Below, one piece after another: positions 1-24,992 of a stretch of 64,000 nt of DNA. Below the pieces are notes generated by a model, which was not told the origin of the DNA, did not search any database, and worked only from the letters and a program-made list of their open reading frames with translations. The DNA lies in NCBI GenBank assembly GCA_951406725.2, contig OX597815.1:120032001-120096000 (forward strand). The letters are read 5' to 3'. Position 1 is the stretch's first letter. Each line of letters opens with the position of its first letter. This DNA comes from Octopus vulgaris (Eukaryota). A program made the translations under genes and the position numbers.

Positions 1-1289
1 GTTGAGTTATATTGCTTCATGTGAGGTTCTTTATTAATGTTGTGGAATGAGAGAGGTCGTTGTATCCATAATTAATATTTGGTATATAATTAATTGTTGC
101 TAAGGTCATTTAATTTATTTTACATTATTTTTCTTTTTTAAATTTTCATGGTATGTGATAGTGAAAGTAAAGATAAATAGAAAATTTTAATTCTCAACAA
201 AAATAAATAAAACATAAATAGAATTTAATGCACCAGAAAATTTAGATTTAAAGAAGTAAAGTTAATTTTTAAAATTTTGCTATCAAAATAATCATGACTA
301 ATAGAGTGAAGATATAAATTTCTAGTAAAACGGAAATATTAAAAAATGTTGAAGTAACTATTTCTTTAACATGACAGAAGACTATATTTGACTGACATAT
401 TTCAAGACATGTCTTCAGTTCTGCTTTATAAAGCATCTCTAAACAATATTGGAATCTTAAGACATTAAATCCGAGTAAAATGTTTTTGAAATATTCAAAG
501 ATGGAAAGTATTTATTTAATTATTATTATTATTATTTTTTTTTTTTGCTTTCTATAGATTTTTCTTGGACAACATTTAAAAGCAATACAATACTAAAAGA
601 ATTCCAGAAGAATGATTTTATAGACATTAGTGAAATATTTGCAATGATAGGGTCCCTGCTGTATATGAATGACAGGCACTTAGCTTTGTACCGTATTTCA
701 AATATGAACATCTCTAGCTATCTACCTAACGATCTATCCATCCACTTACTTACTAAATGATACACATACACATGCATGTTTAGTTAAATATTTACTTGGA
801 CTGGTTGTCCCATTGTGTCTTTGAGCAGAGCACGTCGTTTTCCATTGCTGTGGGCTACTCCACAGAAAATACATTCAAGCATAGTGTTGGTCTACTATAA
901 GGTCCTGTTTTTGTTGCAGTGTAATGGGATATGTGCCTCAATGACACTGGGAGCTTTGCTAGCAGAACACAAGCTCCTAATAGGGCCTCTTATGTTGGAT
1001 AGGCCAAAGGATAGAAACCAGACTAATATGGATGACTTCTAATAAGTAAAAGTGGGTTTTCATAGAGCCAACATCCCAACCTAGAAGTAAAACAAGTCAG
1101 AAGCATTGATGACAATCCAAAATCAAAAATATGTGGGAGAGGATAGTCTTCACTCAGAACAGCAAAATTCAAAAGGAAAAGGGATACTGTGTTAGAACTG
1201 AAAAAGCAGGAATCCAACTGGAGAAAAACAGAAGAGAAAGCTCTTGTCAAACCATCAAACCCATGCCAGCATGGAAAACAGGTATTAGA

Positions 1290-2330
1290 GGCTGATTTTA
1301 CGCAATGTGGAGGGAACCAGGCTGCTGGAGTTCTGCAATGCAAATGATCTTATGGTTTGTAATACTAACTTCAGGAAACCTGCCAGTCACCTATTCAATG
1401 CGGAAACTAGGGATAGATGAGTGGTTAGTGATAGCTGTACAAGCTATGTACAGGGATGCTGTCAGGAAGGTGAGGGTTGGCAATGAGTATAGTGAAGAAT
1501 TCTGGGTAGGGATAGGGGTTCACCAAAGATCAGGCAGACAAACCACAAATCCTTTCAGGTAGATGGTCCTGCTCAATCTGTAAAAAAGGTATAGGTAGAA
1601 ACTCCATAAGATGTAGCCAGTGTAAGCTATGGACACATAAGAGGTGCAGCAATATCAAAGGAAGGCTAACCGGGAACATAGTTTTTTGTGTGGCAAATGT
1701 TTAGGAGCAATAAACACTGAAAATGTGCAGAAAACAGCTTCCGTCACATGCCAGGAGGAAAACTAGAAATAGTTGATAGCTTCTGTTGCCTAGGTGACCA
1801 AGTCAGTTGTTGGGGTGGATGCTCTGAGAGTGTAGCTGCAAGAATAAGAATAGCCTGGGCTAAGTTCAGAGAGCTCCTACCTCTGCTGGTGACAAAGAGC
1901 CTCTCTCTCAGAGTAAAAGGTAGACGCATGTGTGCAAACAGCCATGCTACATGGCAGTGAAACATGGGCCATGATTACTGAGGACATGCGTAAGCTTGCA
2001 AGGAATGAAGCTAGCATATTCTGCTAAATGTGTAATATCAGTGTGCATACACGACAGTGTGTAACCACCCTGAAAGAAAAGTTGGCCATAAGAACTATCA
2101 GATGTGGTGTGCAAGAGAGATGACAGTGCTGGTATGGTCATGTGTTGCATATGAATTAGGACAGCTGTGTGAAAAAGGGTCACACCCTAACAGTTGAGGG
2201 AACCTGTGGAAGAGCTGGACCCAGAAATACCTGGGATGAGGTGGTGACAATACCTGGGATGAGGTGGTGCAACATACCCTGCCTAATTAAGAGTACCCTT
2301 CAATCTTTGGGCAATAAACTTTGCTTGCAA
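1290..2330 (+). mobile_element. RTE-clade non-LTR retrotransposon remnant (endonuclease end, RT, C-terminus; internally deleted, frameshifted)
   Basis: Translations RNVEGTRLLEFCNANDLMVCNTNFRKP (APE C-terminal), MRKLGIDEWLVIAVQAMY (RT), CKLWTHKRC, ARIRIAWAKFRELLPLL, GRAGPRNTWDEVV; homologous to the copies at 5330-7065 and 15840-16600. Confidence 0.9.
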
Positions 2331-2712
2331 AGACCTGTTGAGTCAAGTGGAGTCATTGCCATGGTTGATACCAGTACCGCCTGACTGACACCTGTGCCAG
2401 TGGCATGTAAAAAGCATTCGAATGTGATCAATGCCAGTGCTGCCTGACAGGTCCCATGCTGGTGGCATGTAAAAAGCACCATTCAAGCATGGTCGTTGCC
2501 AGTACCGCCTGACTGGCCCTCGTGCAGGTGGCACATAAAAATCACCCAATACACGCTCGGAGTGGTTAGTGTTAGGAAGCTGTAGAAGCCTTGCCAGATC
2601 AGATTGGAGCCTGGTACAGCCTTCTGGCTTGCCAGTCCTCAGTAAAATCGTCCAACCCATGCCAGCATGGAAAGCAGACATTAAATGACAACGATGATGA
2701 TGATGATGATGA
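2330..2712 (+). repeat. RTE 3'-UTR / RTE-tail repeat with tandem GGTGGCACGTAAAAAGCACC units and (GAT)n tail
   Basis: Three to four units, then GTTAGGAAG...TGTAGAA, CCAACCCATGCCAGCATGGAAAG and a (GAT)n tail; the same module recurs at least 8 times in the window. Confidence 0.8.
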
Positions 2713-2906
2713 TATATATATCATCATCATCATCGACTATAATAAAACTTTTGTGTTTTCTCCGTCACAACATACGAATGAGAAAGGAAGGAGTAATGGC
2801 AAACCTGGTAGTGGAATGATGAAAGTTCTACGGTGAAAAAATAATCAAACAGCATTTCAGCTTTGCGTGAGTATATATGTGTGTATGTGAAAAGGAGTCA
2901 TTTGAA

Positions 2907-2947
<41 letters not shown>

Positions 2948-3793
2948 GCGTGTGTGTATGTGTGTGTGCAATGGAAGTGGGATGGTGAACATTCAATGCT
3001 GAAAATAAAAATCAAACAGCATTTCAACTCTGTGTGAATGTATGCATGTGTGTGTGTCCATGTACAAGGGAAGTATGTGAATGTTTGTATCTGTGATTAT
3101 TTTGTGCCTTTATATATAAAATAATAAAATTAGCCTTCATTATTGATGGCACAGGGCCAGCTACTTTAATGATGATGATGATGATGTAGTGGGAATACAC
3201 TATATCATTGACCACATTCGAATGCTTTTTACATGCCACTGGCACAGGTGTCAGTCAGGTAGTACTGGTATCAGCCATGGCAATGACTTCACTTGACTCA
3301 ACAGATCTTCGCAAGGTGTTGATGTGGCTGTGTGTATGTTATTACAAGTGTCCATATAGAGATGAAAGAATGAATTCAAGATCTATACATTTACTACATA
3401 AAAATATATTTTATTTACTGATTGATGATGACACATAGAATCAAAATGTAGAATCTAGTTGAATGAAGTAATCTATGCAAGAAAGTTCAGAGATAGAAAA
3501 TGTAGAAATAACAGCTAAGTGGTGGTTCTCAGTCATGTGGCACAGAGAAATAGATGGACATAGCAATGACATGAATGGCTCTAAGTCTAACTGACTAGGA
3601 AGCGAAAAGCTGGGTTAGCAAGCTGTTTTCAATAATGGAATGCTAGACATTCTAGAAACTTCCAAGGGAAACGCTAACCTTCTAGAATAATTAAGAATCA
3701 TGTCTCATGACACAGATGCTTCAAGAAACTTAGAAAAGGTTATTCTATAATCTTTCTTGCAAGGGAGATCATTCAACTATTTTGCTACCTACA

Positions 3794-3833
<40 letters not shown>

Positions 3834-3896
3834 TCATCATCATTTTCATCATGCTGGCATGGGTTGGACAATGGGTGTTAAATGATGATGATGACA

Positions 3897-3929
<33 letters not shown>

Positions 3930-3933
<4 letters not shown>

Positions 3934-4170
3934 TTTTATTCTTTTACTTGTTTCAGTCATTTGACTTAGGCCATGCTGGAGCACCGCCTTTAGTCAAGCA
4001 AACTGACCCAAGGACTTATTCTTTTAAGCTTAGTGCTTATCCTATCAGTCTCTTTTGCCAAACCACTAAGTTATGGGGACATAAACACAGCAGCATCAGT
4101 TGTCAAGTGATGTTGGAGAGGGACAAATGCAGCCACACAAATATATACACGCATACACACATATATATAT
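3930..4170 (-). mobile_element. tRNA-derived SINE family 1 (octopus OK-like), 3' half
   Basis: Matches the 3' half of the full copies at 13850-14258 and 25157-25560. Confidence 0.85.
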
Positions 4171-4402
4171 GTATGTGTGTATATATACATTTCAATTATC
4201 CCTGGAATTTCTACCTTTATAAGTAGTCTGTAATATCTTTGGTGCTTATGGGAATTTTTGCTTCCCTGGTAACTATTTTTTTTTTTTTCCTTGATATATG
4301 TACACATTGAAAAAATATACAAATATTTATATATATATACACACACACACATGTTAGCATGGAAGGCAGAAATTAAACAATGACAATGATGAAGATGACG
4401 AT

Positions 4403-15597: not shown

Positions 15598-15786
15598 CTA
15601 TGCAGAAGAATTAAGTAAGAGAAACTGAAGAAATAAAATAATCTTCGATTCTCGAATATTCTGGAATACTTGTTGATATCTGCCAGTTTAAGTTAGGTAA
15701 TGTGTATGTTTACTATAAAAATATTAACTTTCTTTACATAATCATAAACATACATACATACATACATACATACATACATACATACA

Positions 15787-15822
<36 letters not shown>

Positions 15823-15839
15823 TGTGTGCGTGTGTGTGT

Positions 15840-17075
15840 GTGGCAGATACTCAGGAGCAATAAACACTGAAAATGTGCAGAGAACAACTTCCGCCACATT
15901 CCAGGGAGAAAAACTAGTAGTTGATGGCTTCAGTTACCTAGGTGACCAAATCAGTAGCTGGGGAGGGTGTGCCAAAAGTGTAGCTGCTAGAATAAGAAAA
16001 GCCTGGGCAAAGTTCAGAGAGCTCTTACCTCTGCTGGTGACAAAGGGCTTCTCGCTCAGAGTAAAAGGTAGACTGTATGATGCATGTGTACAAACAGCCA
16101 TGCTACATGGCAGTGAAACATGGGCTGTGACTGCTGAGGACATGCGTAAGCTCATAAGGAATGAAGCCAGTATGCTTCGATGGATGTGTAATGTCAGTGT
16201 GCATACTCAACAGAGTGTAAGTACCTTGAGAGAAAAGTTGGACCTAAGAAGCATCAGATGTGGTGTGCAAGAGAGACGACTGCACTGGTATGGTCATGTT
16301 GTGAGAATGGATGAGGATAGCTGTGTGAAAAAGTGCTACACCCTAGCCGTTGAGGGAACCTGTGGAAGAGGTAGACCCAGGAAGACCTGAGATGAAGTGG
16401 TGAAGCAAGACCTTCAAACATTAGGCCTCACCGAGGCAATGACTAGTTACCGAGACCTTTGGAAATATGCTGTGCTTGGGAAGACCTGGCAAGCCAAATG
16501 AGACCATAACCTCATGGCCTATACCAGGGTGTAACCTGCCCACAAATGTGTATCTTTCCTTCATTGGACGCTAAACTCTGCTTGCAAAGACCTGTTGAGG
16601 CAAGTGAAATCGAAATCGAAATCAAATTCGATGACTGGCATCCGTGCTAGTGGAGCACTAAGAGCACCATCCGAGCGTGATCGTTGCCAGAGCGGCTAAC
16701 TGGTTTCCATGCCGGTGGCATGTAAAAAGCACCATTCATGCATGATCATTACCAGCGTTGCCTTACTGGCACGTGAAAAAACATTCAAGCAAGGTCATTG
16801 CCAGTGCCACTGAAATGGCTCCTGTGCAGGTGGCATGTAAAAACACCATATGAGTGTGGCCGTTGCCAGTACTGCCTGACTGGCCCTCATGCTGGTGGCA
16901 TGTAAAAGCACCCACTACACTATTGGAGTTGTTGCCATTAGGAAGGGCATCCAGCTGTAGAAACTCTGCCAGATCAAGACTGGAGCCTAGTGCAGCCATC
17001 TGGTTCACCAGTCCTCAGTCAACTCGTCCAACCCATGCTAGCATGGAAAGCAGACATTAAATGATGATGATGATG
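15840..17075 (+). mobile_element. RTE-clade LINE 3' end (ORF end, 3' UTR with tandem units, (GAT)n tail)
   Basis: ORF 15824-16390: FSYLGDQ, LHGSETW, ERRLHWYGHVVRM, RGRPRKT; followed by repeated GGTGGCATGTAAAAAGCACC units and (GAT)n. Confidence 0.92.
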
Positions 17076-17947: not shown

Positions 17948-18485
17948 GAATATGAGGAGCTTAGTTCACTGGTGATCTAAATGAATAGGTACACTGAGTA
18001 AGTGCTACGATTGGTCATCTTTTAGGTTCCAGGTTTACAGGTGACGCTGGAACTGGGGATCACGTTAGCAGGTATATATTAGAGGAAAAATACAGCAAAA
18101 ACCAAGGCAGGACAAATATTTCAAGTCATTTATAATTTAGGGTGAGGTGAATTTGAAGTCTTACAACTGTTTTTGGGATATCCCAAATGATAGGCTAGCA
18201 TGTCCATACACTGGGTATTCTGTTATCAGAGACAAGGTGAGTATGTAAGAATGTTATAGAAAGTTCTATCTTATTTCTTATAAACTGTAAATTTCTCTGT
18301 CTAGAACTTTCATACATACTCATCTTGTCTCTGATGGCACTACCTAGTGTATGGACATGCTAGCCTATCACTTGGGATATCCCAGGAACAACTGTAAGAC
18401 TTCAAATTCACCTTGCCCTATTTAAATTATTCTAAATGATTTCAGATACTCATCTTACCTTGGTTTTTGTTGGCCTTTTTCCTCC
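17948..18485 (-). mobile_element. Palindromic HHR element, family A (decayed copy)
   Basis: Arms about 18080-18268 and 18300-18485 are inverted; tail 17948-18075 is the reverse complement of 24850-24995; degenerate HHRs at 18158-18233 (-) and 18327-18400 (+). Confidence 0.8.
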
Positions 18486-18733: not shown

Positions 18734-19378
18734 TATTCATTTTATATTGAGTTATAATAAAAACAATTTGACATTAAACTAAAGAAGTATTCTATACTTT
18801 TTTGCAGGGGACATGTTTATAATACTTTCACAAGAAGAGGGATGACTGTGATTTAAAAGCTTCAGGCAGATAGCTTTTGAAGACACTGTCACCCATCTTC
18901 TTGTAAAAATGTAATACACACACATGCACACACTCAAACACACACCCACAAACACATACAAGCACACACACATACACCTATATGTGCATTTGTGTGTATA
19001 TGTGTGTATACGTACATGTGTGTGTGTGTGTGTGTGTGTCCGTGTCCTTCCAGCTGAAGTGGTTATTGTCTTGTAAGTTACTCAGTGATCATGTTAGTGC
19101 TGGTGCCATGCAAAAGCACCTGTGTAGGTGTCATGTAAAAAACACCCAGTACACTTTGTAAAGTGGATGGGATCAGGAAAAACATGCAACCATAGAAACC
19201 ATGCCAAAACAGACAACTGGAACCTGGTGCAGTCTTCCAGCTTGTCAGCTCTTACCAAATCATCCAGCTCATGTCAGTATGGAAAACAGAAGTTAAATGA
19301 CAATGATGATGTTAATGACAATGTATATATCTATCTATCAATCTCTCATCCCTCTCTGTCTGTCTGGATGTCTCTGTA

Positions 19379-20115: not shown

Positions 20116-20120
<5 letters not shown>
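20025..20120 (-). mobile_element. 5'-truncated copy of HHR family C inside (TA)n
   Basis: Reverse complement of 30128-30220; retains GGCCC-GAAA-CATATG-TA-CCGC. Confidence 0.8.
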
Positions 20121-20164
<44 letters not shown>

Positions 20165-20182
20165 TATATACATACATATATA

Positions 20183-20892
20183 TACAAAATTTAGAGGACT
20201 GACCACTAAAAGTGGATGGCCTTTATGCTAGATATAGACGTCAAAATAGCTATATTTTCCACAAAGAATGTGTTCTCAAGAAAAACTCAGCAAAAAACCA
20301 AAGTGTAAAAATAAGCAAGACAAATGAAATTATACGAAATAAAAGACAATTACCTTTGTACTAATTAGTTTCCCTTGTTAATATTTACGTATATGGACAC
20401 GTAAGCATCTGCAAGATCATCAGCATAGTCTGTCATTTACAAAACACAATTTCCAGAACTAGATACAGAACGCTCAACCGAAATCCAGCATGTAGAGAGT
20501 TCCACAAATTATATTTACATGTATCTTTCAAATGCCTTCACCTTGGCGTGCTGAGCTTGGAAATTACTCTGCAGTTAATAAACTACAGCAGTCAATTTAC
20601 TGGTTAGAGAACATTTTTTATTTAAAATTAAATAAGGGGAGAAATTGATATTAATCAATTAAAACCAGTGGCCTAGCATATTTAAAAAAATTCTGAAGAA
20701 TAAAATTTTTTTTACATACAAAATTTAGAGGACTGACCACTAAACGTGGACAGCCTATATGCTAGATATAGACGTCAAAATCACTATTTTCCACAAAGAA
20801 TGTGTTCTCAAGACATAAAGTGTAAAATTAAGCAAGACAAATGAAAATATACGAAATAAAAAACGATTACCTATGTACTAATTAGTTTCACT
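20183..20892 (-). mobile_element. Retrozyme-like element: about 1.3 tandem units with HHR-bearing direct repeats
   Basis: 20183-20372 is directly repeated at 20717-20889; complete HHR at 20354-20428 and HHR 3' half at 20871-20889; flanked by (TA)n on both sides; no ORF. Confidence 0.75.
20354..20428 (-). ncRNA. Type I hammerhead ribozyme motif
   Basis: CTATG-CTGATGA-TCTTG..TTACGT..ACGTAA..CAAGG-GAAA-CTAATTAG-TA-CAAAG (CATAG in the second repeat gives a perfect stem I); palindromic stem III. Confidence 0.85.
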
Positions 20893-20929
20893 TTATATAT
20901 ATACATACATACATACATATATATATGCA

Positions 20930-21058
20930 TAGAATATCCAGTGCATGGACATGCTAACCTACCACTTAGGTTATCCCAGAAACGTCTGTAAGACTTCAAA
21001 TTAAATTATTATAAATTATTTGAGATACTCGTTCTGCTTTGGTTTTGATTTTGCCTAT
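20930..21058 (+). mobile_element. 5'-truncated family A HHR element inside (TA)n
   Basis: Matches 24693-24838; retains GGTTATCCCA-GAAA-CGTCTG-TA-AGAC and lacks CTGATGA. Confidence 0.8.
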
Positions 21059-21139: not shown

Positions 21140-21545
21140 TGGAAATTGTAGCTGTGATACCAGTGCCGGTGGCACGTAAGCAAATCACCTGAACGTGGCC
21201 GTTACCAGCGCCACCCCGACGGGCCTCCGTGCTGGTGGCACGTAAAAAGCATCATCTGATCATGGCTGTTGCCAGCCTCGCCTGGCCCCCGTGCCAGTGG
21301 CATGTAAAAAGCACCATCTGACTGTGGCCGTTTGCCAGCCCCATCTGGCAACTGTGCCGGTGGCACGTAAAAAGCACCCACTACACTCACGGAGTGGGTG
21401 GCGTTAGGAAGGGCATCCAGCCGTAGAAACATTGCCAGATCAGACTGGGCCTGGTGCAGCGTTCTGGCTTCCCAGACCCCAGTTGAACCGTCTAACCCAT
21501 GCTAGCATGGAAAGCGGACGCTAAATGATGATGATGATGATGATG
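21140..21545 (+). mobile_element. RTE-tail repeat (young, CpG-rich) with four tandem GGTGGCACGTAAAAAGCA units and (GAT)n tail
   Basis: Same module as the RTE 3' UTR at 16650-17075 but without coding sequence. Confidence 0.8.
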
Positions 21546-21914: not shown

Positions 21915-22540
21915 ATGCGAGAATGAGTGCACTGCTCAATCTTCTGTCTCCTGCCATGCCAGACCATCATCATTGCACAGCACTGTGAGTTTGTCTTCCA
22001 ACAACAACAATGACGGCTGCCCACCTGAAGTGCAGCAGACATGTAATGGTGGAAAGGGGCAGCTATGACACAGGCCAAAGTGGGTGGTAAGCTCCATCCA
22101 AGGCTAAATACAGGTATGAGTCTTAAAGCTGACAAGTACCGCAAGGGAAAGGTGAAAAGAAGTTTGGAGGGAGAAGTCAAGAGACTGTGAAACCACCCAG
22201 GGGTAAATGGGTAGGACCACTCACAGTGATCGTGAAGGGATTCAGTTTGCTGCTTCCCACCGAGGCACTGTTATCACCAACAACTGTGCCACTTGTTCCA
22301 CAGGTAGTTGTCTGCCACCTCATCAGCACTCAATTTCCAGGGCACCTGCATTGGATGCACTTCCCTTCTAATCCGTTGTTGCAACCAGTTCCTGTTGGGT
22401 TGGAAGGTATGCTGTGGTTTCAGGTCACAGGGCAGCACCCCACCACTGATTGCTTCGGTCAACCGGCAATGGGACCCCCACACTTCTCTTGACTGGGCCT
22501 GTCACTCCTCAAATGCAGGCATGGCTAAACAATGAGGACA
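21915..22540 (+). pseudogene. Dispersed, decayed 28S rRNA fragment (5' domain, D1-D2)
   Basis: GGTGGTAAGCTCCATCCAAGGCTAAATA...ACAAGTACCGCAAGGGAAAGGTGAAAAGAAGTTTG...GTGAAACC matches the conserved LSU core; strong CpG-to-TpG decay. Confidence 0.88.
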
Positions 22541-23580: not shown

Positions 23581-23989
23581 TAATATTTGCGCCGTGACCA
23601 ATGTGGAAGGCCAATCGTATTTTCGCAACCGGAAGGGGCGAGTGTGGGTACACCGCCCTGTACCGGCTGAGCGGACACCGGCGGCGAATGGTGGCGACGC
23701 CGCGAGGACACGGCGAATGGTGGCGACGTCGCGAGGACATGGCGGCTGCCAAACGCCGTTTTCGAGCCCGTCGCTCAGGTGCAACCTGTGATCATGGCTT
23801 TGGTTGCATGTATTAGCTCTAGAATTGCCACAGTTACCCACTCTCCTTGCGGTGAGGAATAAGGTCCCGAGGATTAGGTCCGGTTCCTGAGTCATTTGTG
23901 GTTTTACCATTCGTTTACGGCATGAACTTACACTTGCATGGCTTAAGCTTTGAGACAAGCATATGACTACTGGCAGGATCAACCAGGTT
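23581..23989 (-). pseudogene. 18S rRNA 5'-terminal fragment (about nt 1-410)
   Basis: Starts AACCTGGTTGATCCTGCCAGTAGTCATATGCTTGTCTCAAAG (mature 18S 5' end); contains TAACTGTGGCAATTCTAGAGCTAATACATGC; GC-rich V2 expansion; ends GGCGCAAATATTA. Confidence 0.93.
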
Positions 23990-24011
23990 GATCAACATAT
24001 ATATATATACA

Positions 24012-24058
<47 letters not shown>

Positions 24059-24319
24059 CTGTGTTTGTCCCCCTAACATCACTTGACAACCGATGCTTGT
24101 GTGTTTACATCCCCGTAACTTAACAGTTTGCCAAAAGAGACCGATAGAATAAGTACTAGGCTTACAAAGAATAAGTCCTGGGGTCAATTTGCTCGATTGA
24201 AACAAGTAAAAGAGTAAAAGAGAGAATAAAGAGTAAACAGAAAATTCGTAATTATATTTCTTATCAGTCAACATCAAAACATTCTTACAGTTTTGTACTT
24301 TTAATGACATATATATATA

Positions 24320-24992
24320 TCATAAGAGGAAAAATCAAACCCAAGGCAGAACAAGTATCTCAAAGTCATTTAGAACAATTTAGAGTAAAGCTGTTTCTGG
24401 GATAACCCAAGTGGTTGGTTAACATATCTGTGCCCTGGATATTCCATCATCTGAGACAAGGTATGGATATTTTATTCGGAGAAAATTTACAGTTTACAAG
24501 GAATAAAAGTCACTGTTTATAAGGAATAAACTAGAAGAATGAGTATTAAAATATTCTTCTAACTACTTTTACTCTTTATTCTTCCATTTTACTATTTTAT
24601 TTTTTTATTCTATTCCTTATAAACTTTGAATTTTATTCCTTGTAAAATATAAATTTTCCCCATCTAAAATATTCATACCTTGTCTCTGATGATGGAATAC
24701 CCACTGCATGGATATACTAATCGACCACTTGGGTTATCTCAGAAACAGCTGTAAGACTTCAAATTCACCTTAGCCTAATTAAATTATTCTAAGTGACTTG
24801 AGATACTCGTTCTGCCTTGGTTTTGATTTTTTCTCTAATATGATATATACACGCTATAACGGAATCCTAACACAGATCCCTAGATCCAGCCTTAGCTGTT
24901 ATCTTGGAACCTAATGGTTGACCAACTATAATATAGCACTTACCCAGCATACCTATTCATTTAGATCACAAGTGAGTTAAACTCCTCAGATT

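What the first reader, a model, noticed from the sequence alone, without database searches (positions are those of the whole stretch)
20183..20892. Retrozyme-like 1.3-mer predicting a 517-nt self-excising, possibly circular RNA
Seen: a ~175-190 bp direct repeat (20183-20372 / 20717-20889) with equivalent GUA sites at 20876 and 20359, 517 nt apart. The downstream HHR is complete. The upstream one is truncated after GAAA but has the perfect stem I partner CATAG. There is no ORF and both ends lie in (TA)n. Established: retrozymes are tandem HHR-flanked non-coding units that yield monomeric linear and circular RNAs. Inference: the more-than-unit-length copy reflects reverse transcription around a circle or along a multimeric transcript.
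Basis: partly seen in the sequence, partly recalled or inferred. Interest (0 to 1): 0.72.

Follow-up and report, generated by a model that had tools for sequence, protein, structure and literature searches.

The report
Old Penelope-copied hammerhead retrozyme insertion
This is one old, mutated copy of a protein-less jumping repeat found at many places in this animal genome; its 534-letter unit carries a predicted self-cutting RNA, and the shape of its insertions suggests that a borrowed Penelope-type enzyme copied it, likely from a small RNA circle, which is a known idea not yet proven.

Summary
It is not a one-off. The own-genome search gave 3191 first-look candidates, and I examined 170 places. 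The type I hammerhead shows compensatory changes across copies. The copies carry the Penelope-like (PLE) footprint: 3' ends at two fixed points in (TA)n, 5' truncation, partial tandems (70 places), and head-to-head arms, one per end type (55 of 58). No copy examined joins a coding PLE, and none reaches two full units. Copies read cleanly through the cut site, and both repeats of an insertion share subfamily variants. This favours a circular monomer template; an uncut linear precursor remains possible. This locus is decayed: the upstream ribozyme lacks its catalytic half and the downstream one has a stem I mismatch. CATAG is simply the family's usual sequence. No RNA evidence for a discrete or circular species was obtained, and no autonomous partner was found. 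It is a variant of known animal retrozymes / non-autonomous PLEs. This scan has already reported sister families with the same footprint elsewhere in this genome.

The parts
20183..20892 (-). Whole insertion: 5'-truncated partial tandem (1.33 units), no tail, no inverted arm
20183..20716 (-). One full 534-nt unit (U1 = 20716, U534 = 20183)
   Evidence: other copies align over U1-534 at 77-91%
20717..20892 (-). Upstream partial unit (pseudo-LTR-like repeat), begins just before GAAA; 15-nt and 2-nt deletions
20345..20437 (-). Type I hammerhead with extended stem I, long stem II and short palindromic stem III; stem I mismatch at 20356; predicted cut after 20359
20871..20892 (-). 3' half of the upstream hammerhead (GAAA, stem III palindrome, GUA, CAUAG); predicted cut after 20876 only by long-range pairing
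20359..20875 (-). Cut-to-cut monomer, 517 nt, predicted well folded (z -4.2; 0 of 100 shuffles as good)
20183..20184 (-). Main fixed 3' end of the family (U534, ends in UA); inferred first reverse-transcription start
   Evidence: 121 of 256 arms end at U528-534
20619..20716 (-). U1-98: the stretch that other copies carry as an optional 3' tail; U98 (20619) is the inferred second start
   Evidence: 99 of 256 arms end at U86-104, 63 exactly at U98
20120..20182 (.). (TA)n at the 3' end, inferred target
   Evidence: family: 145 of 183 ends followed by (TA)3 within 16 nt against 8% of random flank positions
20893..20930 (.). TA/TACA microsatellite at the 5' junction

Best explanation
This is an old, decayed, 5'-truncated insertion of a dispersed protein-less repeat with a predicted type I hammerhead, likely inserted by a borrowed Penelope-type reverse transcriptase/endonuclease and likely copied from a circular RNA monomer. 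Shown: unit, partial tandems, two fixed 3' ends, TA targets, one-of-each head-to-head arms, covarying ribozyme stems. Inferred cycle: a source copy holding two cut sites is transcribed; the hammerheads release a ~534-nt monomer, which closes into a circle; the enzyme nicks (TA)n and primes at a UA inside a folded domain (U534, or U98 for the tailed arm); it runs back through the closed cut site and usually falls off within one turn, sometimes after 1.3-1.85 turns. The two arms of head-to-head copies would come from the two start sites used in one event. This locus is a product of that cycle and probably no longer a source.
For: (1) Family: 3191, 3809, 4101 and 3450 first-look candidates for four long queries; 239 loci fetched = 170 places. 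(2) PLE footprint: 220 of 256 arms end at U528-534 or U86-104; 91 of 170 places have both orientations; 55 of 58 head-to-head pairs with two recognisable ends have one U534 and one U98 arm, none has two tails (32 further pairs had an arm with another end and were set aside). These features match descriptions in PMC8557442 and PMC3846280 (passages) and the two internal starts in PMC11167929. (3) Ribozyme under selection in source copies: on 70 of 112 segments, 91.5% of cells paired, 70 cells with changes on both sides, 0 of 500 shuffles as high; stem I UA/CG 50/10, stem III UA/CG 33/26, distal stem II UA/CG 52/12. The core is intact in 116 of 150 segments. (4) The template runs past the DNA end: a helix spanning the U534 junction covaries (pair 486-44: CG 79, UA 26 of 118). 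(5) Not a cut linear monomer: 171 segments cross the cut site, 3 with an indel there, and only 3 of 234 5' ends lie within U356-362. (6) Both repeats of an insertion come from one unit: within-insertion identity 0.914 against 0.843 between insertions, higher in 54 of 56; at 20 polymorphic sites the repeats agree in 715 of 768 comparisons, with no upstream/downstream bias (26 vs 27). Several subfamilies show this, so the repeats must have been regenerated from a monomer more than once (inference). (7) Cut-to-cut stretches fold well: z at or below -3 in 12 of 15, and lower than the antisense strand in 13 of 15 (12 shuffles each, rough).
Against: In the one PLE studied in vitro, ribozyme mutants inserted normally and unprocessed RNA was the main substrate (PMC11167929). 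No arm of 170 places holds two full units (longest 987 nt); a rough survival estimate (0.7% at 710 nt) makes this compatible with low processivity, but it also fits a finite linear template. Shared variants between repeats could also come from gene conversion or template jumps. Rare variants shared by both repeats were only 12 against a control of 5.7, and 7 of 21 tandems formed pairs in the tree: modest. The helix predicted to close the U98 site (U440-446 with U104-110) is conserved but shows no compensatory change, and a 7-bp match is easy by chance. Covariation counts are of related sequences, not independent events, and RNAalifold's own consensus recovered only distal stem II of the hammerhead. 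5' ends are denser just 3' of the cut (21 at U370-390 against 8 at U328-348), which may mean some templates were cut. Samples are the top 40 per query and are biased to long or two-armed copies. No autonomous partner was found. Only 1 of 9 Xenopus retrozyme dimers cleaved in vitro (10.64898/2026.07.22.740005).
Confidence: 0.6

Rival explanations
1. Same element and enzyme, but the template is an uncut linear transcript longer than one unit (a partial-tandem source read through), with internal starts at U534 and U98; repeats are regenerated now and then by template jumps or conversion, and the ribozyme acts at another step.
For: PMC11167929: internal initiation at two sites explains the tail, and cleavage was not needed for insertion in vitro. 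No two-unit arm in 170 places. A clean cut-site junction is expected here too.
Against: No systematic difference between upstream and downstream repeats. Every subfamily change is present in both repeats. 5' truncation would shorten the lineage each round unless something regenerates it. Ribozyme stems covary, so cleavage was likely selected.
Confidence: 0.3
2. The unit is only the orphan 3' end (pseudo-LTR) of a coding PLE, with no RNA life of its own.
For: Hammerheads lie in PLE pseudo-LTRs (PMC4209133), and vertebrate retrozymes resemble them. PLE coding remnants lie within 1.5 kb at 9 of 146 places.
Against: All 70 places that extend 5' of U1 do so into another copy of the unit. Of the 9 remnants I read four: in L206 the element interrupts a coding remnant, and in L214, L216 and L005/L038 microsatellite or other sequence lies between; the other five were judged from coordinates only. 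The unit shows no convincing DNA match to 40 PLE loci. That sample is small: 150 of 6136 candidates were scored.
Confidence: 0.07
3. A one-off local duplication, or DNA-level tandem expansion, of a dispersed monomer.
For: Satellite-type amplification has been proposed for retrozyme arrays.
Against: 70 independent places show the same junction, the same fixed 3' end and variable 5' ends.
Confidence: 0.03

Closest known systems
Animal non-LTR retrozymes (Cervera and de la Pena 2020, PMC7229834; parts 2-4 of 6 read)
   Same: Non-coding, low GC (0.30-0.33), type I hammerhead with short palindromic stem III, a U.U mismatch at the base of stem II in most copies as in axolotl HHR_Amex2, structured monomer, PLEs present in the genome.
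   Different: Unit 534 nt against 150-450; long stem II (about 45 nt); dispersed partial tandems under two units instead of dimers to 62-mers; no RNA shown here.
Retrozymes as non-autonomous PLEs (Li, Clavereau, Pollet 2026, bioRxiv 10.64898/2026.07.22.740005; parts 1-3 of 5 read, supplements closed)
   Same: Unit size within their 51-972 range; PLE-derived reading.
   Different: Their link is by co-occurrence and pseudo-LTR similarity in vertebrates; here it is by insertion footprint, and no similar pseudo-LTR was found. This locus fails their 'active' rule of two complete hammerheads.
EN+ Penelope-like elements and their non-autonomous forms such as MRC1 (PMC8557442, PMC3846280: passages; PMC11167929: parts 1-2 of 4; PMC4209133: parts 1-2 of 4)
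   Same: 5' truncation, partial tandems, head-to-head inverted copies, optional tail on one arm, AT-rich or (TA)n targets, two start sites. The circular-template explanation of more-than-unit copies was proposed in PMC4209133.
   Different: No reading frame; tail 98 nt against 30-40; no autonomous family with a matching 3' end found.

Membership tests
Non-LTR retrozyme | Type I hammerhead in each unit | tested here: met
   Core intact in 116 of 150 segments; covariation in stems I, II, III; no Rfam hit
Non-LTR retrozyme | Non-coding, low GC | tested here: met
   No frame of 60 codons on the element strand; GC 0.30-0.33
Non-LTR retrozyme | Tandem array with at least two complete hammerhead units | tested here: not met
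   This locus has one complete motif. Family: 0 arms with two full units, 19 arms with two cut sites at 170 places; six arms show two whole motifs and a seventh one with a deletion
Non-LTR retrozyme | Self-cleavage, and linear and circular monomer RNA in cells | not testable with these tools
   Only contigs of runs guessed to be RNA were offered
Non-LTR retrozyme | No LTR, primer-binding site or polypurine tract | not tested
   No such search was run; the repeat is a partial tandem, not a terminal repeat around a unique interior
Non-autonomous EN+ Penelope-like element | Fixed 3' end, 5' truncation, partial tandems | tested here: met
Non-autonomous EN+ Penelope-like element | Head-to-head inverted copies with an optional tail on one arm | tested here: met
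   55 of 58 pairs; tail 98 nt, longer than the 30-40 nt described
Non-autonomous EN+ Penelope-like element | AT-rich or (TA)n targets | tested here: met
   145 of 183 ends against 8% background
Non-autonomous EN+ Penelope-like element | 3' sequence shared with an autonomous family | tested here: inconclusive
   None in 40 PLE loci; only 150 of 6136 GIY-YIG candidates scored
Non-autonomous EN+ Penelope-like element | Target-site duplication | not tested
   Ends lie in microsatellite, where a duplication cannot be told; no count was made
Autonomous Penelope-like element | RT + GIY-YIG reading frame joined to the repeat | tested here: not met

The most novel reading that the evidence does not exclude
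This family is a fossil record of target-primed reverse transcription around a ribozyme-closed RNA circle: one event uses two fixed internal start sites, one per DNA end, and passes through the sealed cut site, so that each insertion rebuilds its repeats from one monomer. It would be genomic support for the circle model of Penelope-type partial tandems, proposed in 2014; my six paper searches showed no demonstration of it.
Probability: 0.45. Interest if true: 0.6.

Novelty: new variant of a known kind. Interest (0 to 1): 0.36.

Why it matters
How Penelope-like elements make their more-than-unit copies, and which enzyme moves animal retrozymes, are open questions. This family joins the two: a retrozyme-type unit with the complete Penelope insertion footprint, and a nearly strict one-tailed, one-untailed rule for two-armed insertions. 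That gives exact start sites and template designs for a bench test of circle against linear precursor. The value is limited: the model is published, this family is old (copies 77-94% alike), and the scan's notes (unchecked) describe younger sister families in this genome that would serve the test better.

Tried and rejected
Rfam: no hammerhead match in the window. RNA: no RNA holder listed. Contigs of five runs guessed to be RNA cover the unit at family level, some cross the cut site, and they do not cover the unique flanks that run X18 covers. Contigs show no ends, strand, level or circle, so this is no evidence either way. One joint that goes back 533 nt (X12) is what any partial tandem gives. 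Autonomous partner: a GIY-YIG search and 10 longer stretches found several PLE families with RT and GIY-YIG, none with this unit; a 63-nt 71% antisense match in L129 is AT-rich and was rejected. Shared flanks gave 27 pairs, mostly not in register at both boundaries and not followed one by one; a longer parent element is not formally excluded. Long arrays: four long queries from three subfamilies returned overlapping top sets and none of two units. Pile-up of 5' ends at the cut: not seen. The termination-rate profile is distorted by how the search picks candidates and was not used as proof. Two apparent upstream/downstream differences at U464-465 lie at a 2-nt indel of the reference and were rejected as alignment artefacts; U430-469 was left out of the site count for that reason. 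The scan's index held no look-alike of this unit or of a second subfamily and nothing near this place. PMC13282606 (passages) has no mention of ribozymes or non-autonomous elements; its repeat library and supplements were not seen and may hold this family. Repbase and Dfam could not be searched.

Full report
Observation. The feature is real and lies on the minus strand, 20892 to 20183. The two repeats align at 172 of 187 positions, with 15-nt and 2-nt deletions in the upstream copy. The full unit is 534 nt (U1 = 20716, U534 = 20183), so the insertion is 1.33 units. The predicted cuts follow 20876 and 20359, 517 nt apart. The downstream type I hammerhead has every core part but an A.A mismatch in stem I; the upstream one has only its 3' half. 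There is no frame of 60 codons on the element strand, and TA microsatellite flanks both ends. Rfam has no match.

Family. Searches of the own genome with four long and four short queries gave 779 to 4101 first-look candidates, of which 40 were scored each time. The 239 loci fetched collapse to 170 places. Of 256 arms of 60 nt or more, 121 end at U528-534 and 99 at U86-104 of the next unit (63 exactly at U98); 36 end elsewhere. 5' ends vary. 70 places are partial tandems, 91 have both orientations, and 19 arms hold two cut sites. None holds two full units; the longest is 987 nt. Among head-to-head pairs with two recognisable ends, 55 of 58 have one U534 arm and one U98 arm, 3 have two U534 arms, none has two tails; 32 pairs with another end were set aside. 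In the first 135 places, 145 of 183 ends were followed by (TA)3 within 16 nt, against 8% of random flank positions. These samples favour long and two-armed copies, so the shares are not genome-wide frequencies.

This is the Penelope-like footprint. Passages of PMC8557442 and PMC3846280 describe 5' truncation, partial tandems, inverted 5' copies, an optional 30-40-nt tail on one arm and (TA)n targets. PMC11167929 shows in vitro that the tail is the stretch between two internal reverse-transcription starts, and that both DNA strands are cut and extended. The genome holds PLEs with RT and GIY-YIG domains; a CxxxxCxxC linker places them in the Neptune type by the description in PMC8557442. None of 40 such loci shares DNA with the unit. 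Coding remnants lie near 9 of 146 places; the four I read are neighbours or targets, not parents. The partner is therefore inferred, not found.

Ribozyme. I aligned 70 of 112 hammerhead-spanning segments, leaving out most from the hammerhead query itself and those with indels. The named structure has 91.5% of cells paired and 70 cells changed on both sides, above all 500 shuffles, and far above the slid controls. Stem I, distal stem II and stem III each have a UA/CG swap, and stem III stays near-palindromic across variants, as in motifs thought to work as dimers (PMC4209133). The sequences are related, so these are a few events, and the number of pairs with a double change (10) was reached by 60 of 500 shuffles. 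CATAG is the usual strand after the cut (94 of 150; CGTAG 25), so this locus's downstream CAAAG is a rare departure (3 of 150).

Template. A cut linear monomer would give at most 176 or 274 nt of cDNA, and its copies would begin at the cut. Instead 171 segments cross the cut, only 3 with an indel there, and 3 of 234 5' ends lie within U356-362. A helix that spans the U534 end covaries, so the RNA continued past the DNA end and the start was internal. The two repeats of one insertion are more alike than repeats of different insertions (0.914 against 0.843; 54 of 56), and agree at subfamily sites in 715 of 768 comparisons with no upstream or downstream bias. Each subfamily change therefore passed through a single unit and was then doubled. 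A circle does this in every round; PMC4209133 and PMC7229834 propose exactly that. An uncut linear precursor with occasional jumps or conversion can also do it, and PMC11167929 found cleavage dispensable in vitro. Rare shared variants (12 against 5.7) and tree pairs (7 of 21) lean to the single-molecule reading only modestly. I put the circle at about 0.6 and the linear precursor at 0.3.

This locus. Its repeats differ by about 8%, as is typical of the family, so it is old. A transcript could in principle be cut twice with the one catalytic half, but the folds cost 7.3 and 12.3 kcal/mol over the best fold. The 517-nt stretch still folds well (z -4.2), as do 12 of 15 natural cut-to-cut stretches. 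Nothing shows that it is transcribed.

Verdict. It works like an animal non-LTR retrozyme and inserts like a non-autonomous Penelope-like element. It fails the tandem-array test of retrozymes and differs in unit size, long stem II and 98-nt tail, so I file it as a variant. Six paper searches gave no description of this family. The scan's notes, seen after my own counts, report sister families of 359-535 nt with the same footprint in this genome; they are unchecked leads, and sequence look-ups did not link them to this unit. Interest 0.36.

Noticed in passing
window 33362 (-): A second hammerhead-like motif with a long stem II and a palindromic stem III, different in sequence from this family.
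   Followed up: no
window 21931-22146 (+): Fragment matching eukaryotic large-subunit rRNA, E 7e-6 but below the gathering score.
   Followed up: partly
window about 23900-24320: Frame translations recall the 5' end of small-subunit rRNA read backwards; recalled only, and Rfam did not confirm it.
   Followed up: partly
window 18138-18467 and 20931-21046: An 80-nt inverted repeat (90%) and a further copy of the same repeat next to this element's 5' flank; possibly another two-armed repeat family.
   Followed up: no
window 21214-21545: Very abundant repeat with 63-nt subunits, also at 19116-19317; SINE-like by recall.
   Followed up: no
window 15728-16390 (+): 220-codon frame that recalls the end of an RTE-type LINE; no Pfam hit.
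   Followed up: partly
L120-L123: Young PLE family with many intact 781-codon RT + GIY-YIG frames, a second 327-378-codon frame upstream in three copies, and by eye a hammerhead-like motif with the U3-A8 core variant near its 3' end.
   Followed up: partly
L124 4721 (+), L129 about 4305-4350: Another PLE family with a minimal hammerhead-like motif in its 3' end.
   Followed up: no
L121 4730 (-), L124 3034 (-), L125 1421 (+), L126 5026 (-): Further small repeats with type I hammerhead-like motifs and long stem II, unrelated in sequence to this unit.
   Followed up: no
family, U370-470: 5' breakpoints are denser here in both the terminal and the upstream unit; cut templates or microhomology in U-rich tracts could explain it. 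Many head-to-head pairs break at nearly the same position on both arms.
   Followed up: partly
L083, L087, L089: Subfamily with the canonical G-C pair at the base of stem II where most copies have U.U.
   Followed up: partly
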